A DNA stretch of 54,186 bases, taken from the IMG/VR virus record IMGVR_UViG_3300022744_000034, positions 1 through 54,186 of that record; one strand, given 5' to 3'. Shown piece after piece: positions 4,918 to 28,023 of this stretch. The translations under genes were made by a program, and so were the position numbers. The notes beneath the pieces were generated by a model. The model searched no databases, was not told the DNA's origin, and saw nothing but the letters and a program-made list of their open reading frames with translations. How positions within the stretch are numbered: the first letter of the stretch is position 1; each line of letters begins with the position of its first letter. The stretch is from a virus (taxonomy: Duplodnaviria; Caudoviricetes).

Positions 4918-5703
4918 TTACGTCAGCCCCACGGAAACACGACAACCCGACGCGGTGATGTTGCTGATCGAGGGCGTGCCGAGCGTCGGATATGGTGGGG
5001 AAGTCACGCCAACGCCGATTCGGCCCCCGTTCAGATAGAGCAGCTGCATCGGAGCAGCGTGCAGCGCAGCCATCTCCGCGCCAGAGAGTCGCCTGTTGAA
5101 GATGTAGGCGACATAGACCTCCGCATCTGCATTTAGCGAGGCGAGACCGCCCAGTCCTTGTGCGTAGCCAGCAGCAAGCGGGGCCGACGTTGAAGGCGCG
5201 TTGTATGTGATCGACGAAATCAGCCGCCCATCGGTGTAGCTTTTGCACCCGCTGCTTTCGCCGAACTGTATTGCGAGACCAAACGTTCGGATACCGGCCC
5301 TGTAAGGGCCGAAATTCAACCCGTTAGGGGGTGGGTCATTTGCGAAATTCGCCCCGTCGGTATAAACGCCGATCCCGATTTGGTTTGAAAATAGGTTCCC
5401 TGCAACAACACCAACGGTTGGCGCCCACACGGTTTTTGTTGGCAGCATCTGGACAAAGAAGGAGACCCCAGCACCGAGCTGAGCCATCTCATAGAACTTG
5501 TCGAACCGCGCAGCCCCCCGCGTACCAAGTCCGTTCTCGCAACGCCCAGGCACCACTTTCGATAGCGCAGCGAGGCGCTGTGACACGAGGTTGATTGGCT
5601 CAGTGCCAACAGCAGCAAATACCAGCCCGTGCGACAGCGAGTTAGACCAATCGACCTCGGACGGCCCGGTTGGTAAGCGACGCACTGCAACAAGCTCTGC
5701 CAT
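4918..5703 (-). CDS. LamG/concanavalin-like structural protein
   Basis: C-terminal VYVAYIFNRRLSGAEMAALHAAP resembles the end of LamG_3 domains; abuts both neighbours. Confidence 0.55.
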   Translation of the reverse strand: MAELVAVRRLPTGPSEVDWSNSLSHGLVFAAVGTEPINLVSQRLAALSKVVPGRCENGLGTRGAARFDKFYEMAQLGAGVSFFVQMLPTKTVWAPTVGVVAGNLFSNQIGIGVYTDGANFANDPPPNGLNFGPYRAGIRTFGLAIQFGESSGCKSYTDGRLISSITYNAPSTSAPLAAGYAQGLGGLASLNADAEVYVAYIFNRRLSGAEMAALHAAPMQLLYLNGGRIGVGVTSPPYPTLGTPSISNITASGCRVSVGLT

Positions 5704-6144
5704 TTATGCAGCAGCCTTTTCGCTGCGAGGCTTGACCTTCAGCGACCACCCCGCGGCGATGGTCTGTCCAGTGCCGTTGTTGTAGAGATAGTATTCGGCG
5801 ATCTCAGGCAGTTCGCGCGCTAGCAGAACCATCGTCTGCGCCGTTGTTACGTTGTCGACAACAAAAGACCCGATGACGCGCGTGGGGCGCGCAGCCTCTG
5901 GCACCTGAGCATCGGACGTGCCGTCTAAGTCGAGTGGCCTAGCGAGCAGGCTGACCACCGTGCTCTCGGTCGGCGCCGTAGAGAAAATAGCCGTCAGCAC
6001 GAACTCGGCGTCTGGGTAGCCTCCGCCGGTCGTCCCACTGTTGTAGCTTGTCGTTGCCGCTACAACAGCGTTATTCGCCACAGACGCGCCACTGGCTTCG
6101 AGCGTCGTTTGTGCGCCACGCACGATAATTCGTTCGCCTGCCAT
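5704..6144 (-). CDS. Hypothetical virion-associated protein
   Basis: 146 aa, beta-rich, tightly coupled in the operon. Confidence 0.65.
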   Translation of the reverse strand: MAGERIIVRGAQTTLEASGASVANNAVVAATTSYNSGTTGGGYPDAEFVLTAIFSTAPTESTVVSLLARPLDLDGTSDAQVPEAARPTRVIGSFVVDNVTTAQTMVLLARELPEIAEYYLYNNGTGQTIAAGWSLKVKPRSEKAAA

Positions 6145-6599
6145 CAGAGCACCATGCGACCTTCGGCGACGTTCAGGGCGTCGCTCACAGCGTTGTAGTG
6201 GATCGGATCAGCCTCGACGCCGAGTTGCAGCAGTGCGTTGATCCCGCCAGCAAGGCTTGGCACCGCTTGCGCATACGCCTGCATCTGGGTACGGGAGGCA
6301 GGCAAGCCCACATCGAACGCGCCACGCTCGATGAGCTTGAGCAACCACTTGATGTTCGGGTCGCTTGCGCCCATCGCCTCCAGCGAGTCGAGGAAAGCGC
6401 CGCCACTCGGTGCCATCACGGCAAGGATGGTGCCAATGCCGATCATGTGCGAGCGCAGACGGACGCGACCAGCGGACAAGACCGCCGCGATTTCCACGTC
6501 GTTCCGGGTCGGCAGCAGAAGGTCGATTGCCGTCACTTCCTCTGCTGTCAGCGTGCGCTTCGCCAGTCCTTCGAGTGCGGATTGTTGTTCAGGGGTCAT
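6144..6599 (-). CDS. Hypothetical phage protein
   Basis: 151 aa with stop/start overlap; N-terminus and ISDALN-like C-terminus resemble the next gene. Confidence 0.65.
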   Translation of the reverse strand: MTPEQQSALEGLAKRTLTAEEVTAIDLLLPTRNDVEIAAVLSAGRVRLRSHMIGIGTILAVMAPSGGAFLDSLEAMGASDPNIKWLLKLIERGAFDVGLPASRTQMQAYAQAVPSLAGGINALLQLGVEADPIHYNAVSDALNVAEGRMVL

Positions 6600-6600
6600 G

Positions 6601-7086
6601 TCAGTACCTGTTCAGTGCGTCGCTGATGTCGTTGAGCGAAACAGCGCCTTCCCATCCGAGCGTTGCAGGTGCGGCTTCGGTGCCGGTGCCGACCGCAAAG
6701 ATGCTCTCGGCGCGAGTCGCGGGGCGACGCCATAGGGCGTTGAGGGCTGCGCGAGTCGTTGCGCCAGCGGCCACGCTGAAGATGTCATCGAAGAACGCGC
6801 GCTGGTCGGCGCGAGCAGGCTCGACGGTCTCGTTCCACGCGGCGAAGTTGGCGAGCTTGTCATTGTTGCCCGCCGTGATGGCGGCCAAGGCCGAGGCGAC
6901 GAACGCCTTACCAACCTCGTTCTTGCTGACGCTGGATCGCCATACAATCCGCCCGCTCGGGGCGTTGTAAAGCTCGGCGAGGCGGAAGTCATTGCGGATC
7001 GCCAGGGCGGCGACCACTTCGGTGTCGGCGCTGGATCGGATCGCGCCAGCGAGGGCTTGGAGTTGCGCTTCAGTCATCATCTTCAA
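6601..7086 (-). CDS. Hypothetical phage protein
   Basis: 161 aa (MTEAQLQALAGAIR...RPATRAESIF); ATGA overlap with the upstream gene. Confidence 0.65.
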   Translation of the reverse strand: MKMMTEAQLQALAGAIRSSADTEVVAALAIRNDFRLAELYNAPSGRIVWRSSVSKNEVGKAFVASALAAITAGNNDKLANFAAWNETVEPARADQRAFFDDIFSVAAGATTRAALNALWRRPATRAESIFAVGTGTEAAPATLGWEGAVSLNDISDALNRY

Positions 7087-7487
7087 ATCCTAGATTTGCA
7101 GTAATCCCCAAGCGTGCCGGGGCTGTAGATTTGCGGGTTCGGCAGTTGCAAAGCAGCGGCGCACCACTCGCTGCAAAACCATCCTGCATCATCGCCAGGA
7201 CGATTGAACACCTGCCGCTTGAGCAGATCGAGCCAGCCGTAAGGCTCGCCCAGCGTTTGCGCGTAAAGCTGCTTGACGTTCGCCTCGCTCGCGCCGGTAA
7301 GCTCGACGAAATCCCAATGCTCCGCGCGCCAGTCGATGCGCTTCGCCCGCACCCCGCCATCACGCAGCGAGGACGTGTAGCCGATGCCGTCGATGACGAT
7401 CTCGCAATGGCTGTAAATCGACCGGCACCACCAGCGAATCAGCGCGTTGCCGATCTGGCCTTTGCCTTTGTAGAGGGCGAGGCGCAT
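7083..7487 (-). CDS. Permuted papain-like (NlpC/P60-related) amidase or peptidase
   Basis: His motif YSHCE precedes Cys motif WFCSEW, the permuted order; includes G.PYGW. Confidence 0.7.
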   Translation of the reverse strand: MRLALYKGKGQIGNALIRWWCRSIYSHCEIVIDGIGYTSSLRDGGVRAKRIDWRAEHWDFVELTGASEANVKQLYAQTLGEPYGWLDLLKRQVFNRPGDDAGWFCSEWCAAALQLPNPQIYSPGTLGDYCKSRI

Positions 7488-7493
7488 GCCAGA

Positions 7494-7718
7494 TCAGTTG
7501 TCGATCTGGAACGTCAGTGCGCCCGCGCCGAAGCTCGGCGCCGCGTCGCCGTTGTTGATCATCTTCGAGGTCGTCAGCGCGGCATGGATCAGCAGGTTCC
7601 CGGCGGTGGCGGCGTCGAAGATGCCCCAGTGCGTGACCATACCCCAGTTCGCGGTCGGCGCAGCCAGCGACGAGGCCGAGAACAGCGATAACAGGGCGGC
7701 AAAAATCATCTTCTTCAT
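7494..7718 (-). CDS. Short protein: signal-peptide-like leader joined to the C-terminal half of a common phage structural domain
   Basis: RBS AAGGA before ATG 7718; MKKMIFAALLSLFSASSLA followed by APTANWGMVTHWGIFDAATAGNLL...PSFGAGALTFQIDN. Confidence 0.55.
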   Translation of the reverse strand: MKKMIFAALLSLFSASSLAAPTANWGMVTHWGIFDAATAGNLLIHAALTTSKMINNGDAAPSFGAGALTFQIDN

Positions 7719-7722
7719 GGTT

Positions 7723-7968
7723 TCAGTCCTTTCTGTGAAGCTCGTTCCATCGCTCGATGGCACTGCGTTCGGCTTTGATATGGGGGCGGCCGTCAGGGTC
7801 GGCAGAAAACCGAACCTGAGACCCGCGACAACTGCAGGTAGAGCGTCGACATTCCACATAGACCACACGCTCGCAGTCGCCATACGGCTCTTGGACGACG
7901 CGAGCGGTGTAGCCGCACAGCCTGCAGTTCGAAACAGGCTGGCGGTCCAGGTTAGGTCGGGTCGGCAA
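7723..7968 (-). CDS. Lar-like (restriction alleviation) zinc-ribbon protein
   Basis: CRLCG...VEC...C...AIERWN pattern; start uncertain (TTG). Confidence 0.5.
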   Translation of the reverse strand: MPTRPNLDRQPVSNCRLCGYTARVVQEPYGDCERVVYVECRRSTCSCRGSQVRFSADPDGRPHIKAERSAIERWNELHRKD

Positions 7969-8332
7969 TTTCGAACTTCCACGCCGGGAAGTTCACGGTG
8001 TTGCCGCCGCCCGCCGTCAGCGCAAGGCTGGTGCAGGTCGTGACGTACAGCAGTTTGCTGTTGGTCACATCCAGCAGCGCCACGTGGTTCGCCGTGCCGG
8101 TCGTGGAGATGGTGACACCCGACTTTGCGGCCACGGTCAGCTTGCGGCCGCTGGTGTCGCCGTTGGCAGCAGTGAAGTCCGTGCTTGCCATCGTCACGTT
8201 GGCCAGCGCGTAGGTTGCGTTGGCTTCGACGAAGGTCGTCGGCTGGGCCGAGCATGCCACTTGGCGCGTGCAGTTGTTCTTGACGATGTTCAGCGAACCG
8301 TCGAGCACGTCATCATGTACGATCTTTGCCAT
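7952..8332 (-). CDS. Probable virion structural protein
   Basis: 126 aa, Thr/Ala/Gly-rich (GTANHVALLD...TVNFPAWKFEI). Confidence 0.65.
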   Translation of the reverse strand: MAKIVHDDVLDGSLNIVKNNCTRQVACSAQPTTFVEANATYALANVTMASTDFTAANGDTSGRKLTVAAKSGVTISTTGTANHVALLDVTNSKLLYVTTCTSLALTAGGGNTVNFPAWKFEIADPT

Positions 8333-8333
8333 C

Positions 8334-8561
8334 TCAGTTCACCTCGGGTGCGGCGTGCTCGTGGCCGCCAGCGTGGATTTCGATCGACGCCTCGACGCCT
8401 TCCGCGAGCGCAGCGCCTTCAGCGCCCGCTTGCGCAACCCAGCCAGCCAACAGCGCATCGGCCAACGCCTCGATCTCGAAGTTGGCGCCCGCAATGCGCT
8501 CGCCCTCGTAGTACTTGACCCGTCCGTCGAGGAAGGTCGTCTTCACGTCAAAAAAGTCCAT
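8334..8561 (-). CDS. Small hypothetical protein
   Basis: 75 aa, coupled in the operon. Confidence 0.6.
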   Translation of the reverse strand: MDFFDVKTTFLDGRVKYYEGERIAGANFEIEALADALLAGWVAQAGAEGAALAEGVEASIEIHAGGHEHAAPEVN

Positions 8562-8564
8562 GTG

Positions 8565-9179
8565 CTACTCCGTGGTGTTTTCAGGTAGAACCGTCAGTAC
8601 CGAGACTGCAAGGCAGAGGCGTTCGACTTCTCCGCCAGCCGTGACCAACTCGATGTCAAATACATTGTTTCCGGCCGTCAGCAGTGCCGTATCTGCAGCC
8701 GGTAGGCGGAACCAGATCGCGTGCTTGACCACGTCGATTTCCAGTTTCCCGTTGGCCGTGCTCCAGTTCGCCCGCAGAGTGCCACCCACCGTGGCCCGAA
8801 CGTTCGCCCGCGCCTGCGTGTAGATGCTCAGGTCCAGCGGCTTGCGCCAGGCCAGTTGCCCGCCGCCCGAATACTTGGCGAACCCTGCGCCGTTCACGTC
8901 GTTGAACTCGACGTGGTCCGCGTCGACGACCGTGACCTGACGCAGGTCGTCATCGCCGGGCGGGTTCGCCTCGGCGTTCAGGTCCTTGGGGCGGAGCACA
9001 TTCATGACCGCGACCCGCCAACCTTCAGGCAGGGCGTGGCCCGTGACCTTGAACTTGACCGGCGCCGTCTGGTAGATGAGTTCGATGGGCGCGTAAGCCC
9101 ACTCATCCGTTTCGACACGAAACGGAATGTTCTCGGTGCTGCCCTGCCGGATGGAGACTTCCAGTTTCGGGTAGTCCAT
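8565..9179 (-). CDS. BppU-N/Ig-like structural adaptor protein
   Basis: IRQGST...PLDLSIYTQARANVR...LPAADTALL...VFDIEL pattern; start ATG 9179 or TTG 9197. Confidence 0.55.
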   Translation of the reverse strand: MDYPKLEVSIRQGSTENIPFRVETDEWAYAPIELIYQTAPVKFKVTGHALPEGWRVAVMNVLRPKDLNAEANPPGDDDLRQVTVVDADHVEFNDVNGAGFAKYSGGGQLAWRKPLDLSIYTQARANVRATVGGTLRANWSTANGKLEIDVVKHAIWFRLPAADTALLTAGNNVFDIELVTAGGEVERLCLAVSVLTVLPENTTE

Positions 9180-9298
9180 GCTCACGCCTGCGTTCAACTT
9201 CAGTCACTTGCGACACGCGCAAAGTCTGTCCACATGCAAAACAAGGTGTGGGCAATTTCTCTGACTATAAACTGAATCTATGGCGCCATCAAGCAATT

Positions 9299-10030
9299 TT
9301 ATGCCTCGTACCGATCAAGGATTTGCTGGCAGAACCCGGACCGCACCACGTCCTGTCGAGTGAAGGTGACGACGCCGACGCCGCGCATGTCAGCGAGTTT
9401 GACCAAGGCGTCTGCGAGCCCGCTCTCGCGGCGCAGGTCCGACTGGCGGGTATCTCCTTCCAGACAAACTTTCGTGCCGTCGCCCACGCGGGTGAGCAGC
9501 ATCTTGATCTGGGCCGGCGTCGTGTTCTGTGCCTCGGTACAGTGGATGAAGGCATCCGAGAAACTCGATCCGCGCAAATAGGCCATCGGCGCCACACGAA
9601 TGCGCCCTGACTTCAGCAGCAACTTGACGTGTGAGGGGCCAAGGCGCTCTTCGAGAATGTCCATCATCGGCAGCGCCCAGAAGAACATCTTCGATTCGAG
9701 TTCGCCCGGCAGCGCGCCGATCTTCTCGTCCTCGCCATCCACCCCGATCAGGGGCCGAGTCAGAATCAGGCGATCAATCTTGTGCTCGGCCAGAAGTTGG
9801 GCCGCGTAGGCGAGTGCGACGTAGGTCTTGCCCGTGCCCGCGCTCCCTTCCGACAGCGTCAGGGTGTTCGAGCGCAGGCTGGAAAGCAGAAGCCGCTGGG
9901 CCTCGGTCTGAGGCGTCAGCGGCTTCGGGGGAGTAAACCTTTCCCGGTCAGGCTCTTGAACAAGGTGGAGGGCGGGGGTGTCTGGCTTGCGCTTGAACTT
10001 GGCCATCAGGGACTCCAGGGTTTGAGTCAC
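9299..10030 (-). CDS. phoH: PhoH-like ATPase
   Basis: GSAGTGKT, IGALPG, YLRGSSF, EAQN, LLTRVG, GD..QSD, VVRS motifs. Confidence 0.92.
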   Translation of the reverse strand: MTQTLESLMAKFKRKPDTPALHLVQEPDRERFTPPKPLTPQTEAQRLLLSSLRSNTLTLSEGSAGTGKTYVALAYAAQLLAEHKIDRLILTRPLIGVDGEDEKIGALPGELESKMFFWALPMMDILEERLGPSHVKLLLKSGRIRVAPMAYLRGSSFSDAFIHCTEAQNTTPAQIKMLLTRVGDGTKVCLEGDTRQSDLRRESGLADALVKLADMRGVGVVTFTRQDVVRSGFCQQILDRYEA

Positions 10031-10107
10031 TATAAGCCATTTCTATGGCAGCATCAACCTTCCTTATCGGCATGCGTTAACTTGGCACAGGATTTGAGTC
10101 TGACAAC

Positions 10108-10773
10108 TTAGGCGGTCACGGGCTTGCCACGGTCAGTACAGCGCTTTGACCTCGTTAAAGCGTCCTCCGGTGCCCATCCCATTTGTAACCTACGCGCAAC
10201 CACGCAGTATTCGATACCAAGCGGCTCGGCGTACTTGGCTACAGATTGCGCTAGGGTTAGTGTCTCACCCCATACAGTGATGAAGCGATTGCTTCTTCGG
10301 TTATTGGCCTGCTCAGTTTTTGTAGCCCACTTACAGTTTTCCCTAGAGTACGGACCGTCATTATCGATTCTCTCGATGGAGTACTCTGGCCCTGGCCTAG
10401 GCCCCATGTCATTGTAGAAGTTTTCATAGTCAGCCCACTCATCACAGACCGTGATGCCCCGCCCACCGTACAGCGGGTAACTTCGCACCCTCGGGTTTCG
10501 GCACCTGTTGTGAATGTTCTTCCAGGTTTTATACTCAGGGCACTTATTTGCCATACCGTGCGTAGTTAGCCTGGATATATTAATTGCTAGTTTGTGGCAT
10601 CCGCACGACTTAGTGTGCCCATTCGTAAGGTTGCAGGCTGCGACTACAACTTCGCTGCCGCAATTGCACATGCATAGCCACTGAACTCTACCTGTTGTCG
10701 AGTGCTTAGGGCCTTCACGCAAAACCGTTAAGAAGTTATACGTGTTGCCAGCTAGGTTTATTTTTCTTGTCAT
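10108..10773 (-). CDS. Free-standing HNH endonuclease
   Basis: C.CG...KSCGC...HG...YGGRGITVC..W...DMGPRP...SIERIDNDGPY...NCKWAT..EQANN; likely start ATG 10773. Confidence 0.85.
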   Translation of the reverse strand: MTRKINLAGNTYNFLTVLREGPKHSTTGRVQWLCMCNCGSEVVVAACNLTNGHTKSCGCHKLAINISRLTTHGMANKCPEYKTWKNIHNRCRNPRVRSYPLYGGRGITVCDEWADYENFYNDMGPRPGPEYSIERIDNDGPYSRENCKWATKTEQANNRRSNRFITVWGETLTLAQSVAKYAEPLGIEYCVVARRLQMGWAPEDALTRSKRCTDRGKPVTA

Positions 10774-10909
10774 TCTTATCAGCCTATAAAACGGGCTGAG
10801 GTCTGCACCCAAACCGTCTGAGAAGGGCGCAGGAGCCCACGGCTAAGGCACAGACCTCAGTACCCTGCAAAGTTCTCGGGCGTTCTCAGGCGCCGTGTCG
10901 AGAGTTTGC

Positions 10910-10938
10910 AATTTACTTTATCTAAGGCAGTCTGTCAA
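10910..10938 (-). promoter_or_regulatory. Sigma70 promoter for the HNH/phoH genes
   Basis: Minus strand reads TTGACA-17 nt-TAAATT, overlapping the terminase stop. Confidence 0.6.
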
Positions 10939-12629
10939 CTTACGCGGTTTTCTTTCACCTTAAAAGTCGACAACATTGGTAGTCTGACAGTTGACGAACG
11001 ACCTGCGTGGATCATATGGGCAGCTACCCATGCGTACAGTGTTGCATGCCAGGCGTGGTCGACCCCCTTTTGCGACTTTTGCCACTTCACGGATAGTTCG
11101 TGATCACGGTCAAAGGTCTTTATACGCTTCATGTCGCAGGCGTGCGCGATCCATGTCTCATCCGTATTATCCTTACGCTTCTTTACGAACCCCGACTTAA
11201 CATTCTCCATAAGAACGTCAAACGCACGATCTCGGTTGATGTTTACCATTCGCAGGTCGAGTTTCGCCTTGTCAATATTTGCCTCCTGGTCCCGAACAGT
11301 AAACGCTTCAACGCTCTTGTTCTTTGTGTAGACTGCCGCGAACAAATTCGCCGACTCAAGCTGCATTCGGTACACCGATTCGGAGTAGGGCATCGAATCG
11401 CAGACAGCCATTCTCACGTTGTACTGCCGTGCCAGTTCAGACCGTCGTTCCACTAGGCTCCTAAGTGGAATCGCCTCAACATGCACGACAATGATGGTTT
11501 GGTCAGGCATGACGGCCGCGATAACACAGTACGATTCAACGCCAAGGTCCAACCCCATAACATAGCTGAAACCCTTGGACGGCATCTCGTCGATGAGGCA
11601 TCGCCGCATATCCTCGCGCGTAAGCGTCGAGTCTTGTGACTGTGCGGTCAGACCGAGCGTGTTGTTCATCCAGTCTTCACGCAACGAGTATCTTGTGGCG
11701 GCCTCAATCATGTAGCCGGGCGTGTTGTAGCGAGGCACATCAATCGGGCTGATGTGCCAGCCGTGCCTGCGGCCTTTGTACCCAGTATTCTCTGGAACCC
11801 ACTCCCTGTACTCAGGCCCTAGATCCGGCTGTTGTCCGCAACTTGGGCATGCGACATATGCGTCAACATACGAGGGGTGTTTCTGCAGCAAGGAAGGGGT
11901 GATGTTGTAAAAGTCGAAGCCGGGAGCGTTAGGCACACGAACGTCATTGAAGAAATCGAACCAGTGCCACGACCCGCAGTGGGAACACTTGTACATCCGA
12001 TAATGCTTTAGAGAGTCCTTGAAATCTTCGTCAATAGCAAAATCCGGCAGTGTTGGCGTACTCAGACTAATCCTGTGCCGGTGCTCGCTGTGCGTAAGGC
12101 GGGACGTGTAGGCCGATAGAATGTCCTGATCGCAAAAACATGACTCGTCCATGTAAAGCGCTGAGGCCGGGATAGACACCGCTTGCGCCCCCGTAACAGC
12201 CCCTCGCGCGTAAATAAACGAGCTTCCAAAACGTTTCACCTCAGAAGAATTCAGTGCCGGGTCAACAGCATTGCGCATGGCGGGGCTGTCGTTGATGATC
12301 GGGTCAGCCCGCGTCTTCATGAACGTGGTGGCGAATTTGCTTGAGGGCAGGACGTAGATTACCGTATAGCCCTTCATGATGTTAACGCGAGCAAGTGCCC
12401 ATCGGATGGAAAGTTCCGATGCTCCGACCTGCGACGGTTTGATCAGTGCGTGCTCAGGCGCCTTGGACAGCAACGGGCCGAGTTGCCACTCGTGGTCCTT
12501 GAATGACCATGGCCTCCCATTAACAAAGGTATTCTTCTCCATCCAACTCGGTAAAAGGCCAAGGTTATTGTTATACGTCGCCGAGACCTTCAGCCGGTTG
12601 ATGTGTGTACTCCACAGTTCATTGCCCAT
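10935..12629 (-). CDS. terL: Terminase large subunit (GpA-like)
   Basis: KPSQVGASE Walker-A-like motif, YMDE Walker B, STPT coupling motif, CxxC pairs, MGLDLG nuclease motif, C-terminal DHAWHA. Confidence 0.88.
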   Translation of the reverse strand: MGNELWSTHINRLKVSATYNNNLGLLPSWMEKNTFVNGRPWSFKDHEWQLGPLLSKAPEHALIKPSQVGASELSIRWALARVNIMKGYTVIYVLPSSKFATTFMKTRADPIINDSPAMRNAVDPALNSSEVKRFGSSFIYARGAVTGAQAVSIPASALYMDESCFCDQDILSAYTSRLTHSEHRHRISLSTPTLPDFAIDEDFKDSLKHYRMYKCSHCGSWHWFDFFNDVRVPNAPGFDFYNITPSLLQKHPSYVDAYVACPSCGQQPDLGPEYREWVPENTGYKGRRHGWHISPIDVPRYNTPGYMIEAATRYSLREDWMNNTLGLTAQSQDSTLTREDMRRCLIDEMPSKGFSYVMGLDLGVESYCVIAAVMPDQTIIVVHVEAIPLRSLVERRSELARQYNVRMAVCDSMPYSESVYRMQLESANLFAAVYTKNKSVEAFTVRDQEANIDKAKLDLRMVNINRDRAFDVLMENVKSGFVKKRKDNTDETWIAHACDMKRIKTFDRDHELSVKWQKSQKGVDHAWHATLYAWVAAHMIHAGRSSTVRLPMLSTFKVKENRVS

Positions 12630-12681
12630 CGGTGCCTTCTTCTTTTTGTTGTTAGGCGACTGCTTGTTACAACTATAGCGA

Positions 12682-13131
12682 TTAGCCTATGGCTTTATTT
12701 TTTTCCGCAATCACTTCATATCGCTCGAAAAACGCGGCTTTCTCTTGATCCGGCAGTGTCTCAATTGCTTCAAGCAAGGATGTTTCCATCCGCTTGAGTT
12801 GTTCGTCGCGGCCAAGGTCGCTTTGCATCTTCACCAACTGCTGCAAAATACTCGCGACCGAATTGGTCACCTGCGCCTGCTGATTGGCCGGAATATCTTC
12901 CGACGACAACGTTTTCGCCTGCAATTCCACCACGCGATGGTATTGCAATACGAGTTCTTCCTCCAGATTCATCTGCTGAAGCGACGTTGAGGGCAGCGCC
13001 TTGTCGATAGCGCGACGCAAATCCAGTAATTCTTCGATTGATTTATAGCTCAGGTCCGGTAAACCATGCAGCGGTGGGCGAATAAACGCCTCACCGCTCT
13101 GGATTCGCCCTAATTTTTCGTGGTCGATCAT
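12682..13131 (-). CDS. Probable terminase small subunit
   Basis: 149 aa helical protein immediately upstream of terL; positional call. Confidence 0.5.
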   Translation of the reverse strand: MIDHEKLGRIQSGEAFIRPPLHGLPDLSYKSIEELLDLRRAIDKALPSTSLQQMNLEEELVLQYHRVVELQAKTLSSEDIPANQQAQVTNSVASILQQLVKMQSDLGRDEQLKRMETSLLEAIETLPDQEKAAFFERYEVIAEKNKAIG

Positions 13132-14156
13132 TCGTTTCCTTTGCCTCTGAAGTGGCTTTCCATCACCAACAGGATTTCAGCCACGGCCGCCTGGTGGTGC
13201 AGGCTCAAGGTCAGCGGCTCCATGTTCATTCTGGCGAGTTCGGCACGAAACAAGCCCTCGATCACGGCCGCGTCCCCGCCGCGCTCCTGTGCCAATTCCT
13301 CAAGGCTGATCTCGCCGTTCAAATAGGCGATCAACATGCGTCGTAGCGACGCTTCCCGCCAATTCTTGACTGGCATACTGCGTTTTTGCGTCTTTGTCAA
13401 GAGAAGATGGCGGGATTCAGCCCATTTCCGCCAGGCAACGGCGTGTCGCGGCATCTTCTTGTCAATTTCCCAGGCCAATGCCGAGCGAAAACTCGGGCTC
13501 CAGGCGCTCATCTCGTTCAACGTCTGCGGCCGCAGCACGCTTTCGACATAGCGATGCAGCGTTCGTTTCGAAATTCCGGTGGTTTCTGCGGCTTTGACCA
13601 CGCTCATGCGCCCCTTGATGATGTCAAGAGCGACGGGTTGCGCTTTTTTTGCCGTGAGTTTGTAGCGTCCGTCCGCCTTTGGCTTAGCCTTGATCGATCC
13701 GGGCGCCATCCCGTAGCGCCGACGCAGGTTGTGGACCGTGCTCAGGCTCATGCCCAGGCGCTCGGCCGCGTCCTTCGGGCTCAGCGTGCGGGCGTCGAGC
13801 GCCTTCAGCGTCTCAACCATGAGCGGCAGCCGGTCGTTCCAGTGGGTCAGGATGGTCTTGATCGCGGAGTCGGGCAGGGCGCTGGTGTAGGGGCGCCCTT
13901 CATAGGCGGCAAGCAGCGCGTCAAGGTCGCCGCGCTCCTTTTTCAGCGTCTTCACCGGCGTTGACTTGCGCTCGGCGAAGACCAGCAACTCGTTGATTTC
14001 CACGTCGAGGGCGTTGGCCAGCGCGATGACCCGCTTCGGAGGCACGGCGTTGTGCTTGATCCACTTGATGACGGCCGTTACGGACAGGCCCAGTTTGTGG
14101 GCCACCTCGGACGGCTTTTGAATGTAGTCAGAAAGTTTACTTATTTGTGTTTCCAT
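13128..14156 (-). CDS. Multi-HTH DNA-binding protein (Cro-like N-terminus plus three further HTHs)
   Basis: VAHKLGLSVTAVIKW; DAAERLGMSLSTVHNLRR; KAAETTGISKRTLHRY; ISLEELAQERG. Confidence 0.7.
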   Translation of the reverse strand: METQISKLSDYIQKPSEVAHKLGLSVTAVIKWIKHNAVPPKRVIALANALDVEINELLVFAERKSTPVKTLKKERGDLDALLAAYEGRPYTSALPDSAIKTILTHWNDRLPLMVETLKALDARTLSPKDAAERLGMSLSTVHNLRRRYGMAPGSIKAKPKADGRYKLTAKKAQPVALDIIKGRMSVVKAAETTGISKRTLHRYVESVLRPQTLNEMSAWSPSFRSALAWEIDKKMPRHAVAWRKWAESRHLLLTKTQKRSMPVKNWREASLRRMLIAYLNGEISLEELAQERGGDAAVIEGLFRAELARMNMEPLTLSLHHQAAVAEILLVMESHFRGKGNE

Positions 14157-14255
14157 CTTTTTATTGTAGTCCCTGTGTTTTCGCCCTCGCTCTTGGTTTT
14201 ATAGGGTGGACGTGTGTTGTTTTTGGAGCAACGGGTGGTTGTTTACCCGACATTA

Positions 14256-14284
14256 AGTTTAAAAACGCTATTAATTTGTGTCAT
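14256..14284 (-). promoter_or_regulatory. Sigma70-like leftward promoter
   Basis: Minus strand reads ATGACA-17 nt-TAAACT in AT-rich DNA upstream of the multi-HTH gene. Confidence 0.5.
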
Positions 14285-14471
14285 TCGTCACATACAATGC
14301 TGTCCTCGACGCTTAAGATGCCTCCGTTCCTGATGTGCAGGTCGGGTAGCATCGCAATTGTTCACGCCTTTAACTTATATGCCTGCTATTGGATGGCTGA
14401 AAACACATTTTGCAGAGTGCGTGGCACTGCACATGGCTAACGTGTTGACCTTTTCATGAGGTGTGTCAAGT

Positions 14472-14807
14472 TTAGTCGGCAGCAGGGTGTTGGGCAAGGT
14501 GGTCTTCGAGAATGATGCGGAGCACGCCCTCGAATGTGAGGTGGGTGCGGGCGATGACGCTTCTCAGGGTGTGGATGCGGTCCGGGTCCATGTAGACGGT
14601 CGTGGGTCGGACCGGGAGCGTGCTCGTGGCCCCGCGTTTGATGTGGCGGCTGATGGCTTCGGCGACGTGGCTGAGGTCGTTGGGCTTTTTCGTGCTGATA
14701 TAGCAGTCGAGGATGTTGTTCAGGGCGTCGCCCGTGGGGCCGCTCTGGCTCTTGATGTGGTCGAGGATGTCGTCGGGTAGGCGCATGGAGAGGGATTTTT
14801 TGGGCAT
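14472..14807 (-). CDS. Ribbon-helix-helix-like regulator, possibly two tandem RHH units
   Basis: KSLSMRLPDDILDHIK and TTVYMDPDRIHTLR...FEGVLRIILEDHL; RBS AAAGGA. Confidence 0.6.
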   Translation of the reverse strand: MPKKSLSMRLPDDILDHIKSQSGPTGDALNNILDCYISTKKPNDLSHVAEAISRHIKRGATSTLPVRPTTVYMDPDRIHTLRSVIARTHLTFEGVLRIILEDHLAQHPAAD

Positions 14808-14821
14808 GTCCGTGTCCTTTG

Positions 14822-14926
14822 AGGTCTATTTAAGTATAGATATAACTGCACTTGGGGGCAAGGTCTATTTAATAGTGACTAGAAAAGTTTGACGGCTGGC
14901 TATAGTTAATAGTAACTAGAAAAGTT
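14822..14926 (-). promoter_or_regulatory. Promoter of the RHH gene with two pairs of direct repeats (candidate operators)
   Basis: Minus strand TTGCCC-17 nt-TATACT (14861-14833). AGGTCTATTTAA at 14822 and 14861; TTAATAGT(G/A)ACTAGAAAAGTT at 14869 and 14906. Confidence 0.6.
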
Positions 14927-15084
14927 CCTGATTTTGGTTGGTTTGCAGAAGGGTGCTGTCTAGGCCCTCGATCCCCTTTCCGACACAAAAGCTCTCCCGT
15001 CACCGAACGGCGACCATGACAACATCATCGAACCATGCGCACCAGACGACAACAAATAATCACGTCGAAACCCACAAATAATGC

Positions 15085-15113
15085 TTGCACTACTATCTAG
15101 ATTGCACTATAGT
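15085..15113 (+). promoter_or_regulatory. Rightward (early) sigma70 promoter
   Basis: TTGCAC-17 nt-TATAGT, with TTGCACTA repeated inside. Confidence 0.65.
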
Positions 15114-15193
15114 TTAGTCACTGCAACACGAAACGCGCCGCTTCCAGGGAAGCGACCATTGCCCGGAACATCGGGCTTTTACTGGAGACTGAC

Positions 15194-15871
15194 ATGATCG
15201 CCACCGCCACCGCCACCGCCACCGCCACCGCCACCGCCGTCATGAGCGTGGCGGGCGTGGGCCTGCCCGCTTCCCTCCCGCGATGGGAGGCTGCCGCGCT
15301 AATCCGTTCCCTCATTGGGAACGAGAGCGCCATCATTGCCCTTGCATCGAACAAGGCGAAGGCTGAAGCCGCGCTAGCGGTTTCACTTGGGATCGCGCTG
15401 CAAAGCGCGATTTTCGGAGACCAATCCGCTCTCAAGCGGATTGAAGGTGCTGCGCGTGCCCATGCCGAAAAGCATGGGTTGTTGGCGAAAGCCGACAAGG
15501 CTGGCAATCGTGCCCTTAAGGGCACGCTCGGGAAAATGATCCAGTCCTTCAAAGGCGCTGCCACGTTTGGCAGCGCATACAGGGACTTGCAATCCCCACA
15601 CTTCGACTTGCAGGGGATGCTCGCATCCCCTCTTTGCCCGGCTTTGCCGGCGCCGAAGGCCGAAGCCACGACCGAAGCCACGACCGAAGCCACGACCGAA
15701 GCCACGACCGAAGCCACGACCGAAGCTCCGGAGCGCAGCGCACGGGAGCAGCAGCAGCGTGATCGTGCCGCAAAGGCACTGCGCAGCATGCGCGCCACCA
15801 TCCGGGCCATGAAAGCGGCGCAGGATGCGCCGGCCCTTCCGGCCAAGCGCCGCAGCAAAAAGGTGGCCTAG
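15194..15871 (+). CDS. First early gene: Ala/Lys-rich protein with (AT)6 and (EATT)5 repeats and a basic tail
   Basis: GGAGA RBS; 225 aa; ends PAKRRSKKVA. Confidence 0.7.
   Translation: MIATATATATATATAVMSVAGVGLPASLPRWEAAALIRSLIGNESAIIALASNKAKAEAALAVSLGIALQSAIFGDQSALKRIEGAARAHAEKHGLLAKADKAGNRALKGTLGKMIQSFKGAATFGSAYRDLQSPHFDLQGMLASPLCPALPAPKAEATTEATTEATTEATTEATTEAPERSAREQQQRDRAAKALRSMRATIRAMKAAQDAPALPAKRRSKKVA
15200..15238 (+). repeat. Tandem (GCCACC)x6.5
   Basis: Read directly; in frame. Confidence 0.95.
15662..15726 (+). repeat. Tandem (GAAGCCACGACC)x5.4
   Basis: Read directly; in frame. Confidence 0.95.
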
Positions 15872-16878
15872 GCCACTAGTCAAACCCCCGATCGGGGGTT
15901 TGACCAAAAGAGAATGCGTATCATTCTCTTTTGGTCAAACTCAGACCGGTGAAGCGAATCCAGCCGATGGTGATCCATCGGCATGGTGCAGCGAATCCGG
16001 GCGCTCTTTCGACCCTAGGGTCGTCGGCAAGGTTGAGCATCCTTGCCGGTCAAAATCCGGTTATCCGCTAATACATGGGGCAAAGCCTGTGCCGCGTGTG
16101 GTGCGATGAATCCTTGATGCGCCGGTAAAACGGTCGCAAGGTGCAATCAATCCAGACAAAGCCTGTGACAAGCAACATGGTGAGTGCGCGGATAAATCAG
16201 CAGCAGCTAGCACTCGCCCGAAAGGTGCAGAGTGCGCGCTTAACCCGGACAGGATCACTTGCCGAAAGCCCGACGTGGCTGGAAGCAGGGTAGGGGCTTG
16301 TCCAGGGCGTGCCAAAGCAGATGCTAATCCTGTCCTGATACGACGAAACGCACGGTTCCGTGCTTTGCGAAGTAGGCTATCGGACCCGCAGGGTTAGCAA
16401 AGATTGAGCATGTATGCGCAGTGCGGTAAGCCCCGTCGTGAGACTGGCGCGAAACCGCACCGATCGGGGAGTCATGACACGATACGAACCATGTACGGCG
16501 TAGCAAGCAGGCATGGCGTCCCCGGCCCGGCAGACAAGCCGGATCAAACACCCTTACAGCACAAATCGATCAGACGCACATTCCGGCCTATCGGGGATCA
16601 CTGCGCCGCGCTGTAAGGGCAGCAAGGATGATGTAAGACCCTAGGCGAGTCCCAAATTCGCCCTGAAGGGTCACGGTCCGGTCGCCAGTATGAAAGCCGA
16701 ACGCGATCGGAACCGAAACGTCATCCTCGACCTTGCTCGAAGCATTGGAAGTCAAGCGCATCCTTCGGGGTGTGCTTGACTGGCAATGTTGCCAAACGGC
16801 CGTCCGCGCCACGTTCAAGGCGCGGACAGGCTTACCCTTGTCCGCCCGCCTAGAAAGGCACCAGCGGGCGCTTTTTTG
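15872..16878 (+). ncRNA. Candidate ~1 kb highly structured non-coding RNA
   Basis: No credible RBS-led ORF. More than 12 local and long-range helices, G-U-compatible pairs, cUUCGg and GAAA tetraloops, ending in a terminator-like hairpin. Confidence 0.6.
16843..16878 (+). terminator. Intrinsic terminator-like hairpin
   Basis: CGCCCGC...GCGGGCG followed by CTTTTTT. Confidence 0.6.
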
Positions 16879-16890
16879 TTGGAGATAGGG

Positions 16891-17061
16891 ATGAACAAGA
16901 ACAGCAATCTTAACCGCGTGTTCCACGCACTAAAGAGGTACCACGCCGGCCGCAACATGAGCCGGCGCAAACTGAAGGCCCTGGCCGTTATCACAGTCAA
17001 GGGGAACCCATGGTTCCACAGGTTTGCGAAGGGGCGCGACACCGCCCCGTGGCTGGGATGA
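16891..17061 (+). CDS. Small basic protein (56 aa)
   Basis: GGAGA RBS; ATGA overlap with the next gene. Confidence 0.6.
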   Translation: MNKNSNLNRVFHALKRYHAGRNMSRRKLKALAVITVKGNPWFHRFAKGRDTAPWLG

Positions 17062-17285
17062 ACACCCCCAGCCCGCGCCGAAAACGGCGCAAGACCCTCA
17101 AGCAGGCCGCCTACTGGGCGGCTTTTTTCGTTGTGGCCGCGCTCTCGACCACGGCCGCGAGCCACATTGGCGCCTACATGGCCGACGCCAGCACGAGCCA
17201 AGCCAACGGGCTTGCCCTATTGGGCGGCCTGTTTGTGGCTCTAGTCAGCCTCATCGGCTGGCTTTGCTCGGTTTTAGAGGACTGA
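17058..17285 (+). CDS. Small two-TM membrane protein
   Basis: Basic N-terminus followed by two hydrophobic segments. Confidence 0.6.
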   Translation: MNTPSPRRKRRKTLKQAAYWAAFFVVAALSTTAASHIGAYMADASTSQANGLALLGGLFVALVSLIGWLCSVLED

Positions 17286-17339
17286 GAGGCGCTGAGCGCG
17301 AGCAGGCGCGATGAATTTTCACACGCCTAACAGCAAACC

Positions 17340-17757
17340 TCGATAGCAAACACCTATCGACAAGGAAGCTCGGGCACAAGGCATGGCCCATCGACCGCAA
17401 GGCAAGGCCATGCCAAGTGCATCCAGCCGCATGCCGAATCAATAAAAGTGTGACAGATTGCACAACTTTTAAGCAAACAGGCAAAAGTCCTTTCGGCAAG
17501 CCCTGCAAGCCTGCAAGCCAGTAACTGCAAGGCTTTGAGCCTCTTTCTCTATATAAGAAACTGTCACACTTATATATAAAAAGATTTGGTTGATTCTTTA
17601 GAGAGTAAATACAGAAAAAAATTAGAGGGCAACAAGCAAACGACTTGCCGAAACCCCCACTCCCCGCATCCTCGAAAAAAGTGTGACAGTTTCGAGGCTA
17701 ACCCCTTGATTTATAAGGGACCGACCTATCTGTGACAACCTGCACAATTTTTGTGCA
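17340..17757. promoter_or_regulatory. AT-rich element with TGTGACA repeats and an IHF site (origin- or packaging-site-like)
   Basis: AAGTGTGACAG at 17446 and 17679, inverted copy at 17557-17571, partial at 17731; IHF consensus TAACCCCTTGATT at 17699-17711. Confidence 0.55.
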
Positions 17758-17776
17758 GCCTTTATTGGAGAAGACC

Positions 17777-17950
17777 ATGAGCAAGTACCAGGGCTTGACA
17801 AGCATCTTGAAAAGTGCCTTGACCATTCAGCAGGACCTAGGCACGCCCGCTGCCGCAACCTTCCTCCGCGACAACAAGGTCAGCATGTGCATCGCCTTGT
17901 ACATGCTTGCAAGGAAGCCGAGCAAAGCCGAAAGCAAAGGGAAAAGGTGA
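17777..17950 (+). CDS. Small hypothetical protein
   Basis: TTATTGGAGA RBS; 57 aa. Confidence 0.65.
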   Translation: MSKYQGLTSILKSALTIQQDLGTPAAATFLRDNKVSMCIALYMLARKPSKAESKGKR

Positions 17951-17955
17951 CTCCC

Positions 17956-18180
17956 ATGCTCAGAACCTACATCCGCCCGCACCTTGAAGAAGGCGCGCTC
18001 CTGACTCGGTACGGGCACGATACCGACTCCCTATCAAAGGCAAAGGCCCGCATCGAGCGCCTGAGCCGTTCAACGACCCTGGACGAGGCCGAGATACGCG
18101 CCGTCATGAAAAACGGCTCTGAGCGGCTCCTGGCGGTACTGAGCAACGGTCTAGTCATCACCATAGGGCCGGAACAATGA
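17956..18180 (+). CDS. Small hypothetical protein
   Basis: Coupled to neighbours; alternative start GTG 17947. Confidence 0.55.
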   Translation: MLRTYIRPHLEEGALLTRYGHDTDSLSKAKARIERLSRSTTLDEAEIRAVMKNGSERLLAVLSNGLVITIGPEQ

Positions 18181-18503
18181 AATACCTGCCACCCGGAACA
18201 CTGACCAAAGCCCGAAGAAGGGCACGACTTGAAGGTGCCCTTGCAGCAACCTTGGCGATCGCCCTGCTAGGGGTCGTGCTCGTGGCCGCGACGCCAAGAG
18301 AGTTCTACACGTCCGCCCAAGCAAGCCCGACCCCGAGACCCCAAGAACCCTACAGGCACGAGCGCCACGCACTCCCACCTTGCACGGACATGCATGCAAA
18401 GGATTGCATGCAAGACCCAATCCCTATCCCCGAGCCCGGCACAGCAAGCCTCATAGGCGCGGCACTTGCCGGTGCCCTCTATACAAGTAGGAGGACAAAA
18501 TGA
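18177..18503 (+). CDS. Small PEP-CTERM sorting-signal protein
   Basis: N-terminal basic plus hydrophobic segment; C-terminal IPEPGTASLIGAALAGALYTSRRTK (PEP motif, TM helix, basic tail). Confidence 0.75.
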   Translation: MKYLPPGTLTKARRRARLEGALAATLAIALLGVVLVAATPREFYTSAQASPTPRPQEPYRHERHALPPCTDMHAKDCMQDPIPIPEPGTASLIGAALAGALYTSRRTK

Positions 18504-18811
18504 GTACCTTAAGCAGACTACAAGCCCATTTGGCTGCACCAGAAATCAAGCCGTTGGAGCAGGGTCGCGAATACAAAAGCCTTGCCCCGCACGTGAAGTG
18601 TGCAGACGGCAGCACCATGAGCGTTCAGGCCAGCGAATATCACTACTGCAACCCACGTGACAATTACGGTCCGTACCTGCACGTGGAAGTGTGGAATTGC
18701 GGCATCGTAGATGCGTGGGCGGAGTTTGTAGGCGACGAGGACCCCTATGCTTTCGTCCCAATTGCACTTGTGGCGGCCGAAATTGACCGTCACGGCGGCT
18801 TCGCAAACTGA
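18500..18811 (+). CDS. Conserved-type phage hypothetical protein
   Basis: CADG.TMSVQASEYHYC.PR...PY..VEV...IDRHGG; AGGAGG RBS. Confidence 0.75.
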   Translation: MSTLSRLQAHLAAPEIKPLEQGREYKSLAPHVKCADGSTMSVQASEYHYCNPRDNYGPYLHVEVWNCGIVDAWAEFVGDEDPYAFVPIALVAAEIDRHGGFAN

Positions 18812-18839
18812 CACAAAGCACGTTTTACAGGAGAAAGAG

Positions 18840-18932
18840 ATGGACATCATCAAATACAAAATCGTGGCAGCAATCACCGCCTTGGTCATCCTGTATGGAA
18901 GGTTCAGAGGCATGCGCATCGAGGACGAGTAG
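18840..18932 (+). CDS. 30-aa single-TM peptide
   Basis: ACAGGAGA RBS; MDIIKYKIVAAITALVILYGRFRGMRIEDE. Confidence 0.5.
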   Translation: MDIIKYKIVAAITALVILYGRFRGMRIEDE

Positions 18933-18934
18933 CC

Positions 18935-19093
18935 ATGACGAAAGAGCAAACCGCCTGCCGCTCCTGCGCCCATCTGGAAGTGCGCAGGAGCCCACACTCT
19001 GAAAGCCGTGTGTGTCTGAAAGGCAAGCACCAACCTTGCCAGTGGCACAGACCGGCCACGGCACCGATTCCTGGCGCACCGACGCCAGCCTAG
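18935..19093 (+). CDS. 52-aa Cys-rich peptide
   Basis: Manual translation MTKEQTACRSCAHL...VCLKGKHQPCQWH. Confidence 0.45.
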   Translation: MTKEQTACRSCAHLEVRRSPHSESRVCLKGKHQPCQWHRPATAPIPGAPTPA

Positions 19094-19168
19094 AGCACGC
19101 CGCTCTGACGTATCACTTGACTAACTATTCGTTACCTTGTGTGTGGACAACGTCAGGGCGGCACCTAT

Positions 19169-19234
19169 CAAGAACCCAAGGCAAGAACCCAAGGCAAGAA
19201 CCCAAAGCAGGAACCAAAGCAGGAACCAAAGCAG
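19169..19234 (+). repeat. Five 12-13 bp tandem repeats CA(A/G)GAACC(C)AA(G/A)G
   Basis: Read directly; lies just before the RBS of the next gene. Confidence 0.9.
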
Positions 19235-26073: not shown

Positions 26074-26213
26074 TGGAACTCGGTATCGCGCTATTTCTGG
26101 CCTTCACGCCAATCCTCATGTACTTCAACGCACAAGAAAGGCGGACTCACCTGGAAATAATGAAGAGCTTGGAGGTTGAGCGCCTGAAATATGAGGCGCT
26201 GCTGAAAGAATGA
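26073..26213 (+). CDS. 46-aa membrane peptide
   Basis: TGATG coupling; MELGIALFLAFTPILMYF. Confidence 0.55.
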   Translation: MELGIALFLAFTPILMYFNAQERRTHLEIMKSLEVERLKYEALLKE

Positions 26214-26455
26214 TCCACTTCAAAGACAAGACCTTCTGTGCCGATGCAGATCAATGCGCCACTCAAGACTGCCACCGCAGGCTGACTGATGACGACATGG
26301 AAAACCCCAATCTCATTGGACTGCCAACCTCAATGAGTTCGTTCAAGGAAGGGTGCATCATTTTTACACTACCGAATAAGGAGAGAACCATGAAAGTGAT
26401 CATCGAGAAGTTCGTGATCAACAACTTCGTGCTGTACCGTGCGAAACGAGGCTGA
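26210..26455 (+). CDS. Cys-containing hypothetical protein
   Basis: FKDKTFC...C...C.R pattern. Confidence 0.6.
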   Translation: MIHFKDKTFCADADQCATQDCHRRLTDDDMENPNLIGLPTSMSSFKEGCIIFTLPNKERTMKVIIEKFVINNFVLYRAKRG

Positions 26456-26458
26456 ATC

Positions 26459-26815
26459 ATGAAGATCAAAACCAGTGAGATCCTCGGCCCTGCCCTGAAT
26501 TGGGCGGTGGCTGTAGCAGCAAAGAAGCTCCCAATCAGTCACCTACCCTCCAGCAAACACTTCTGGAGCCCCTCAACCATTTGGGCACAAGGCGGGCCGA
26601 TCATCGATCGTGAGAAGATAAAAGTCGCCCCAAATCTAGGCGGTACATGGAGCGCTCAAATCCGCCACACCAAGGATCATCCGCTAGTAGCCCACCCCGT
26701 TCTGACGGGTTGGACAAACAAACATGGCCCCACACCCCTCATCGCTGCCATGCGGTGCTATTGCGCCTCTGTCCTGGGGGACGAGGTTGATGTTCCTGAG
26801 GAGCTACTGAAATGA
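26459..26815 (+). CDS. DUF2591/NinX-like protein
   Basis: GPALNWAVA...SPST.WAQGGPII...GPTPLIAAMRC...LGDEVDVPEEL. Confidence 0.8.
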   Translation: MKIKTSEILGPALNWAVAVAAKKLPISHLPSSKHFWSPSTIWAQGGPIIDREKIKVAPNLGGTWSAQIRHTKDHPLVAHPVLTGWTNKHGPTPLIAAMRCYCASVLGDEVDVPEELLK

Positions 26816-27102
26816 CCAAGCAACGGTTGGGTTTAAAAGAAGCCTGCCGAAAGTACGTTCACCGCTTTACCATGGAGCATGTGCCTGCGTGGGGACTCAG
26901 GCGCCCCATCGACCACGGAGGTACCGCAACTTGGTACTACGCTCCACTGTACCGTACCGACCAGGAGTGGTACGACAATACGATCTTCTTTGGTGAGCCG
27001 GGTTTCATTGGACCGAATGCCGATTCATGCTACTCCGCTAATCATACCTGGCCGCTGGGGCAACACCTTGATCAACCTTTCAGGAAAGAGATGAAGTCAT
27101 GA
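26812..27102 (+). CDS. Hypothetical phage protein
   Basis: YVHRFTMEHVPAW...YAP.Y.TD.EWY...TWPLG. Confidence 0.7.
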   Translation: MTKQRLGLKEACRKYVHRFTMEHVPAWGLRRPIDHGGTATWYYAPLYRTDQEWYDNTIFFGEPGFIGPNADSCYSANHTWPLGQHLDQPFRKEMKS

Positions 27103-27553: not shown

Positions 27554-27569
27554 TCAATTTTTACCAACC

Positions 27570-27594: not shown

Positions 27595-27608
27595 ATGGAG
27601 AAACTGAA

Positions 27609-27821: not shown

Positions 27822-27833
27822 GGAACCTCAGAA

Positions 27834-28022: not shown

Positions 28023-28023
28023 A

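What the first reader, a model, noticed from the sequence alone, without database searches (positions are those of the whole stretch)
15872..16878. ~1 kb ornate non-coding element behind the first early gene: candidate new large phage ncRNA
Seen: in a genome where genes otherwise abut, about 1 kb has no RBS-led ORF but is tiled by nested helices. Examples are GCCGATGG/CCATCGGC (15963/15975), CGGCAAGG/CCTTGCCG (16025/16041), TTATCCGC/GCGGATAA (16061/16188), GCACTC/GAGTGC around a GAAA loop (16210/16230), GGACAGGAT/ATCCTGTCC (16247/16327), GTGCGGT/ACCGCAC (16421/16454), CCCTTACAGC/GCTGTAAGGG (16551/16610), AGGATGATG/CGTCATCCT enclosing a multi-way junction (16625/16719), a 13-bp stem with cUUCGg loop (16751-16780) and GTCCGCGCC/GGCGCGGAC (16802/16819), followed by a terminator. 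G-U pairs and tetraloops read correctly on the + strand, which favours RNA over DNA cruciforms. Known: large phage-associated RNAs (GOLLD, ROOL) and put-type antiterminator RNAs exist; I cannot match this to any by eye. Inference: an immediate-early RNA (scaffold, decoy, ribozyme or antiterminator) co-transcribed from the 15085 promoter with the basic 225-aa protein, possibly as an RNP.
Basis: partly seen in the sequence, partly recalled or inferred. Interest (0 to 1): 0.9.

Follow-up and report, generated by a model that had tools for sequence, protein, structure and literature searches.

The report
Structured untranslated RNA behind phage early gene
A one-kilobase gene-free stretch behind a phage's first early gene carries two clusters of RNA hairpins and ends in a terminator, so it is more likely a regulatory piece of the early transcript than one giant new RNA machine.

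Summary
The window is a 54-kb uncultured phage record. The stretch 15872-16878 has no credible gene: no frame scores as coding, the shadow ORFs match no family, and reading TAG as sense opens no frame. The excess folding energy comes only from the two ends. The 5' module (15872-16050) has z -7.7 and the 3' module (16620-16878) has z -7.8. The 571-nt middle has z -1.5 against a genome background of -0.6 +/- 1.4, so "tiled by nested helices" holds for about 45% of the stretch.

RNA on the + strand is favoured. In a roughly 90%-identical relative from a sequencing run, 36 substitutions break 7 predicted + strand pairs where 13.4 are expected (P=0.008). The same test on the - strand shows no such bias.

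Two paralogous 56-58-nt hairpins share conserved internal loops. Five of their 11 common pairs changed on both sides.

No Rfam family matches. The only distant relative I could fetch, a complete 83-kb phage, has a gene-poor stretch at the same place with unrelated sequence.

My best reading (confidence 0.4) is a modular, cis-acting untranslated part of the immediate-early transcript. A single ornate 1-kb RNA is not supported. No expression data exist.

The parts
15194..15871 (+). First + strand gene. It encodes a 225-aa Ala-rich basic protein with an Arg-rich C-terminal helix and is itself full of hairpins.
   Evidence: GGAG lies 6 nt before the ATG. The codon score is +10 to +20 per 180 nt. 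Three homologs at 43-60% identity share blocks such as SPLCPxLPAPK and RDRAA. pI is 10.1. It matches no Pfam or PHROG family. The stretch 15395-15605 folds with z -6.1.
15861..15940 (+). Three hairpins at and just behind the stop codon: a palindrome over the TAG (15861-15876), a 13-bp palindrome (15879-15904) and a perfect 19-bp stem (15898-15940). The last two share 7 nt. None has a U-tail.
   Evidence: I1, I4; z -7.5 for 15855-16060. In the run X4 relative the 19-bp stem has no change, its 5-nt loop has 4 changes, and the 13-bp palindrome loses one C and one G symmetrically.
15945..16000 (+). Element I, a hairpin with two 4x4 internal loops. Each strand carries GGTG-N5-AATCC.
   Evidence: (z -4.1). 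The fold is unchanged by 3 changes in the X4 relative.
16002..16048 (+). A boxA-like GCTCTTT core (16003-16009), then a 5-bp hairpin (16010-16023) and an 8-9-bp hairpin (16025-16048).
   Evidence: GCTCTTT occurs once on the + strand in the whole window, and twice on both strands against 7.8 expected. The segment folds with z -4.2. In the X4 relative five changes turn the small hairpin into a 6-bp stem with a GNRA loop.
16098..16155 (+). Element II, a paralog of element I with the same architecture.
   Evidence: Alignment A3 has 11 common pairs with 22 of 22 cells paired and 5 pairs changed on both sides; slid controls give none. Model R1 finds only these two copies.
16156..16550 (+). Weakly structured, non-coding middle.
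   Evidence: z is -1.5 for 16050-16620. None of the 19 120-nt windows falls below z -2. One helix, 16210-16215 with 16230-16235, shows a T-A to G-C double change in X4.
16551..16830 (+). The 3' module: a 10-bp closing helix (16551/16610), a three-way junction (16625-16727), a 14-bp cUUCGg hairpin with a 7-bp outer stem (16741-16790) and a 9-bp GC hairpin (16802-16827).
   Evidence: z -7.4; junction z -6.9, hairpin z -7.3. It is more stable on + than on -. In X4, 4 changes in the junction keep or improve the fold.
16843..16877 (+). Terminator-like site T1: a 7-bp GC stem, a 14-nt loop, then C and U6.
   Evidence: Read and folded. The scan does not list it because its loop exceeds 8 nt. The next ATG is at 16891, with GGAGATAGGG in front of it.
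16891..17285 (+). Two small genes right behind T1 (56 aa, and 75 aa with a membrane helix), with no room for a promoter of their own.
   Evidence: codon score positive. The 75-aa protein is 40% identical to its G001 counterpart. In X4 a joint skips 16873-17159.

Best explanation
The stretch is the untranslated continuation of the phage's immediate-early + strand transcript, and it works in cis as a set of RNA modules rather than as one fold.

Shown: it is non-coding, and it has two strongly folding modules separated by about 0.5 kb of ordinary sequence. It ends in a terminator-like hairpin with U6 that sits 13 nt before the next gene's start codon. Its local hairpins are kept in a roughly 90%-identical relative in a way that fits + strand RNA.

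Inferred:
1. The hairpins right behind the stop codon, including a perfect 19-bp stem, protect or process the 3' end of the upstream message.
2. The boxA-like GCTCTTT with its following hairpin, the duplicated double-loop hairpins and/or the 3' junction act on the transcribing polymerase. This would resemble nut, put or canT sites, either alone or with the basic Arg-rich early protein. They would keep transcription going through 0.9 kb of untranslated RNA and set how much passes T1 into the two small genes behind it.
For: - Non-coding status.
- Modular structure.
- Strand: the 3' module has z -7.8 on + against -4.4 on -, and the cUUCGg hairpin has two G-U pairs.
- Selection on pairing, substitutions: of the 36 substitutions listed for run X4 inside the stretch, 19 fall in unpaired positions, 9 keep a pair (one of them a double change) and 7 break one. 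Random placement expects 13.4 breaks (P=0.008). On the - strand there are 8 breaks against 8.9 expected (P=0.44).
- Selection on pairing, folds: applying all listed X4 changes keeps the fold in 8 of 10 segments.
- Elements I and II: 5 of 11 common pairs changed on both sides and none is broken, while the loop sequences are kept.
- Layout: T1 lies directly in front of an RBS-led gene, so that gene must be reached by read-through.
- More terminator-like hairpins precede the ATGs at 15194 and 17778 and lie inside the 75-aa gene.
- boxA-like core: GCTCTTT is the first 7 of the 11 positions of the gamma-proteobacterial consensus GYTCTTTAANA (PMC5725501, passages). It is the only + strand copy in the window.
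- G001 has this core on the early strand only twice in 83 kb. Both copies flank its early gene, and one lies about 50 nt behind the stop codon and is followed by a hairpin.
- Precedent: a 452-nt multi-stem-loop antiterminator RNA (canT) lies upstream of a terminator T1 in Tn916, and put and EAR are further examples (PMC11658703, passages).
Against: - There are no transcript data of any kind, and the promoter is only a guess.
- The boxA match covers 7 of the 10 specified consensus positions in the window. The host, and so its own consensus, is unknown.
- No N-type protein family matches the early protein.
- G001 has neither the modules, nor the GGTG-N5-AATCC motif on that strand, nor a terminator-like site on that strand in the syntenic stretch. 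The layout is therefore not conserved at that distance.
- Hairpin density continues into the coding gene, which suggests a more general role such as RNA stability or a DNA property.
- The substitution test rests on a list that the tool cut to the best-supported rows, perhaps from several strains, and on a structure predicted from the window itself.
- Two segments lose their predicted fold in the relative (16070-16100 and 16245-16337).
Confidence: 0.4

Rival explanations
1. A stable trans-acting non-coding RNA, or several cut from the transcript (for example the roughly 330-nt 3' module ending at T1). It would act as a decoy, scaffold or ribonucleoprotein with the basic early protein.
For: The 3' module ends in a terminator, as small RNAs do, and folds with z -7.4. 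Elements I and II keep their internal-loop sequences while their stems change, which is the usual sign of a binding site. The neighbouring protein is basic with an Arg-rich helix. The perfect 19-bp stem could be a cutting site that frees the RNA (that RNase III prefers long perfect stems is recalled).
Against: No promoter-like site lies inside the stretch on +. No Rfam relative exists. Nothing comparable is present in G001. There are no expression data. The middle half has no detectable structure.
Confidence: 0.25
2. A DNA-level element at the leading end of the early arm: an origin, a packaging or injection signal, or an array of protein-binding sites such as the four GGTG-N5-AATCC copies.
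For: Four exact motif copies lie within 206 bp on one strand, against 0.33 expected in the window; 0 of 100 shuffles reach 4. The 5' hairpins are perfect palindromes that fold equally well on both strands (z -7.7/-7.0). The stretch lies next to the divergent region between the packaging arm and the early arm. G001 has 30-nt tandem repeats at the same place. The hairpin-rich zone ignores the gene boundary.
Against: The substitutions spare + strand pairs only. Several kept pairs are G-U, which would be mismatches in the other strand. Stems between the motif copies change on both sides, which a duplex binding site does not need. The motif spacing is 37, 115 and 40 bp, with no AT-rich tract beside it. 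The motif was found after looking, so its statistic is generous.
Confidence: 0.15
3. A fast-evolving spacer or gene remnant with no function of its own beyond a few terminator or stabiliser hairpins.
For: The middle 571 nt is indistinguishable from shuffles. The relative G001 has unrelated sequence there, and even the neighbouring proteins have diverged (40% identity, or none detectable). Other ORF-poor stretches exist in the window.
Against: One X4 contig piece over 15856-16163 differs by 23 letters and 7 gaps in 308 nt. That is within the range of the pieces over neighbouring genes (17 of 691 to 51 of 468), not above it as free sequence should be. There are compensatory changes. A 1-kb idle stretch is costly in a phage.
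Confidence: 0.15

Closest known systems
canT RNA of Tn916, and likewise conAn2 of pLS20, EAR of Bacillus and put of phage HK022: cis-acting processive antiterminator RNAs
   Same: A long, multi-stem-loop untranslated RNA near the start of a mobile element's operon, lying upstream of an intrinsic terminator that must be passed to reach downstream genes. canT needs 452 nt and has left and right parts with at least three stem-loops each (PMC11658703, passages).
   Different: No sequence or model comparison was possible, and anti-termination was not tested. This stretch is twice as long with an unstructured middle, and it lies behind a protein gene rather than directly behind the promoter.
Lambda-type nut site (boxA plus boxB, with N and the Nus factors) and rrn/Nus boxA leaders
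   Same: A GCTCTTT core followed at once by a small hairpin, placed behind the first early gene and before a terminator. A basic, Arg-rich early protein lies next to it. BoxA elements also prevent Rho termination in untranslated RNA (PMC4807359 and PMC5725501 abstracts).
   Different: Only 7 of the 10 specified positions of GYTCTTTAANA match. The hairpin loop is CUAG in the window. There is no N-family match. The phage is not lambdoid: it is about 80 kb and encodes its own DNA polymerase, primase and helicase.
GOLLD, ROOL, OLE and HEARO large ornate RNAs
   Same: Size class, absence of coding, and a freshwater or phage setting. That GOLLD occurs in lake samples and phages is recalled; of PMC12286853 I saw only the start of the abstract in a search listing.
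   Different: There is no match to any Rfam model even at E up to 10. More than half of the stretch is not structured. No conserved family exists. The long-range helices are not kept in the near relative.
RNase III processing hairpins and 3' stabiliser hairpins of phage early messages (T7 early region, lambda sib). Recalled; no paper read.
   Same: Long perfect stems without a U-tail directly behind an early gene, and hairpins directly in front of each following gene.
   Different: Cleavage was not tested. This does not explain elements I and II or the three-way junction.

Membership tests
Any Rfam 15 family, including GOLLD, ROOL, OLE, HEARO, group I/II introns, EAR and RsmY | Match to the family covariance model at or above its gathering score | tested here: not met
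   the only match in the window is the tRNA at 27477-27553; 10 matches at E up to 10 in 15700-17100, all far below gathering (best is RsmY, 33 against 57 bits).
Lambda-type nut site | boxA sequence | tested here: inconclusive
   GCTCTTTCGAC against GYTCTTTAANA matches 7 of the 10 specified positions. It is the only + strand copy of the core in the window. The host consensus is unknown.
Lambda-type nut site | boxB hairpin with a GNRA-like loop just downstream of boxA | tested here: inconclusive
   A hairpin follows at once (16010-16023). Its loop is CUAG in the window and GNRA-type in the X4 relative.
Lambda-type nut site | N-family antiterminator protein encoded nearby | tested here: not met
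   The 225-aa protein matches no Pfam or PHROG family. Its Arg-rich C-terminus is only a resemblance.
put, canT or EAR-type antiterminator RNA | Makes polymerase read through downstream terminators in cis | not testable with these tools
   Only the layout, with structured RNA upstream of T1 and an RBS 13 nt after T1, is seen.
Intrinsic terminator | GC-rich stem directly followed by a U run | tested here: met
   A 7-bp GC stem at 16843-16849 and 16864-16870, then C and U6. The loop of 14 nt is long, so the scan does not list it.
Iteron-type origin | Direct repeats in helical register next to an AT-rich tract | tested here: not met
   Four motif copies at spacings of 37, 115 and 40 bp. G+C is 0.58-0.60 with no AT-rich tract.
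Type III antitoxin-like tandem RNA repeats | Near-identical head-to-tail repeats | tested here: not met
   Only 9 specified positions recur, and the units differ otherwise.

The most novel reading that the evidence does not exclude
The stretch encodes a new, lineage-specific phage early RNA built from protein-binding modules. These are the duplicated double-internal-loop hairpin with its conserved GAAU/UGCA loop and a three-way junction with a UUCG hairpin. Together with the basic Arg-rich early protein encoded just upstream, it would form a ribonucleoprotein that reprograms host transcription, or soaks up a host factor, in the first minutes of infection.
Probability: 0.15. Interest if true: 0.75.

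Novelty: new variant of a known kind. Interest (0 to 1): 0.45.

Why it matters
Early regions of uncultured phages are where host take-over is decided, and they are almost never annotated beyond "hypothetical". If this stretch is a cis-acting RNA that lets polymerase cross a terminator, it would add a Gram-negative-style freshwater phage to the short list of RNA-based antitermination systems (put, EAR, canT, conAn2). It would also supply a compact, testable motif in the duplicated double-loop hairpin. If it is only a stabiliser and terminator spacer, the finding is ordinary. Either way it shows that a strong whole-region folding score can come from a few perfect hairpins.

Tried and rejected
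Homolog hunting.
- blastn of the stretch against GenBank phages and plasmids: no match.
- Protein-guided scans of viral contigs with the 225-aa, 710-aa and 342-aa proteins: no relative. A scan with the early-protein alignment A4: none.
- A scan with the 75-aa alignment A2 found only G001.
- Terminase alignment A1 in metagenome contigs: 46 loci. The four close ones (L004, L005, L008, L011) stop short of the syntenic place. blastn of 12601-19200 against all loci found nothing there.
- A1 in genome contigs: 3 loci, all at 29% identity or less.
- A1 in viral contigs: 39 loci. Only L053 (G001, 77%) and L054 (55%, too short) are close.
- An exact 24-nt word of the stretch in viral contigs: 0 matches.
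- The loop-and-closing-pair pattern of elements I and II in viral contigs: 15 loci with 23 matches. All are 18-nt coding tandem repeats, so all are false positives.
- Model R1 found no further copy in the window, in the G001 loci or in the whole of G001.

Other readings tried and dropped.
- Coding under TAG read-through, prompted by the CTA-anticodon tRNA.
- A tRNA-like reading of the AATCC motif, dropped because no T-stem pairing exists.
- A second copy elsewhere in the genome, as a diversity-generating template would have: one search found only self matches.
- The G001 early protein as a member of the 225-aa family: BLASTP E 6.6 and hhalign E 0.057.

Sequencing runs. No RNA holder is listed for the stretch. 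Run X6, labelled RNA-Seq but "probably DNA", gave one 164-letter contig at 16145-16307. This says nothing on expression. Parts without cover in run X4 (for example 15204-15470) and the small-share runs X3, X5 and X7-X9 are not used as evidence. I did not use depth to rank conservation.

Supplements of papers were not asked for; Supplementary Table 2 of PMC5725501 (boxA variants) may bear on the boxA call.
Full report
What the window is. The window is a complete IMG/VR virus record of 54,186 bp, classed as linear and about 70% complete. The left arm (1-14,800, - strand) carries packaging and structural genes. These include a GpA-type large terminase at 10935-12629 and a multi-HTH protein at 13128-14156. 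The right arm (+ strand from 15,194) carries early and replication genes: helicase, primase, DNA polymerase, SbcCD-like nuclease and an integrase. The best GenBank phage terminase is only 31% identical. The stretch in question is the second feature of the + arm, directly behind a 225-aa gene.

Noticed in passing
window 27477-27553 (+): The phage tRNA (Rfam tRNA, 50 bits) is read by ARAGORN as anticodon CTA at an odd position (38) and labelled tRNA-Pyl, which makes it an amber-suppressor type. TAG ends 5 of 37 hand-picked ORFs, including the early gene. It lies in a 2.1-kb stretch without long frames (26074-28196).
   Followed up: partly
window 17286-17777: A second gene-poor stretch. GTGTGACAG occurs at 17448 and 17681, with its inverted copy at 17561, around an AT-rich tract. 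A hairpin with a U run lies right before the ATG at 17778. It looks like an operator/promoter region or an origin.
   Followed up: no
window 15395-15605 (+): Six near-perfect hairpins lie inside the 225-aa coding gene (z -6.1; 0 of 200 shuffles fold as well). The gene also has (GCCACC)n at its start and five 12-nt repeats coding EATT.
   Followed up: partly
window 16873-17159: In the run X4 relative a contig joins 16872 to 17160, skipping 287 nt. The 56-aa gene behind the terminator and the start of the 75-aa gene are therefore variable or replaced.
   Followed up: no
G001 (L092/L093) record ends: The 57-nt 'direct terminal repeat' of this IMG/VR record lies inside a 30-nt tandem repeat. The end call may therefore be an assembly break in a repeat rather than a true terminal repeat.
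   Followed up: partly
G001, L092 about 1700-1910 (- strand): The intergenic stretch between the 101-aa and 71-aa genes folds with z down to -7.4. It carries two copies of a 12-nt direct repeat and a repeated GGCCGCGGCG...ATTTTCGG unit.
   Followed up: no
window 1528-3435 (+): A 635-aa HNH/homing endonuclease gene lies on the opposite strand amid the - strand structural genes (PHROG 559, E 1e-128).
   Followed up: no
L103-L117 (IMG/VR contigs): Fifteen viral contigs carry long arrays of an 18-nt unit that reads as a Gly-Ala-Lys-Asn-Pro-Gly coding repeat. They matched my RNA pattern only by chance of periodicity.
   Followed up: partly
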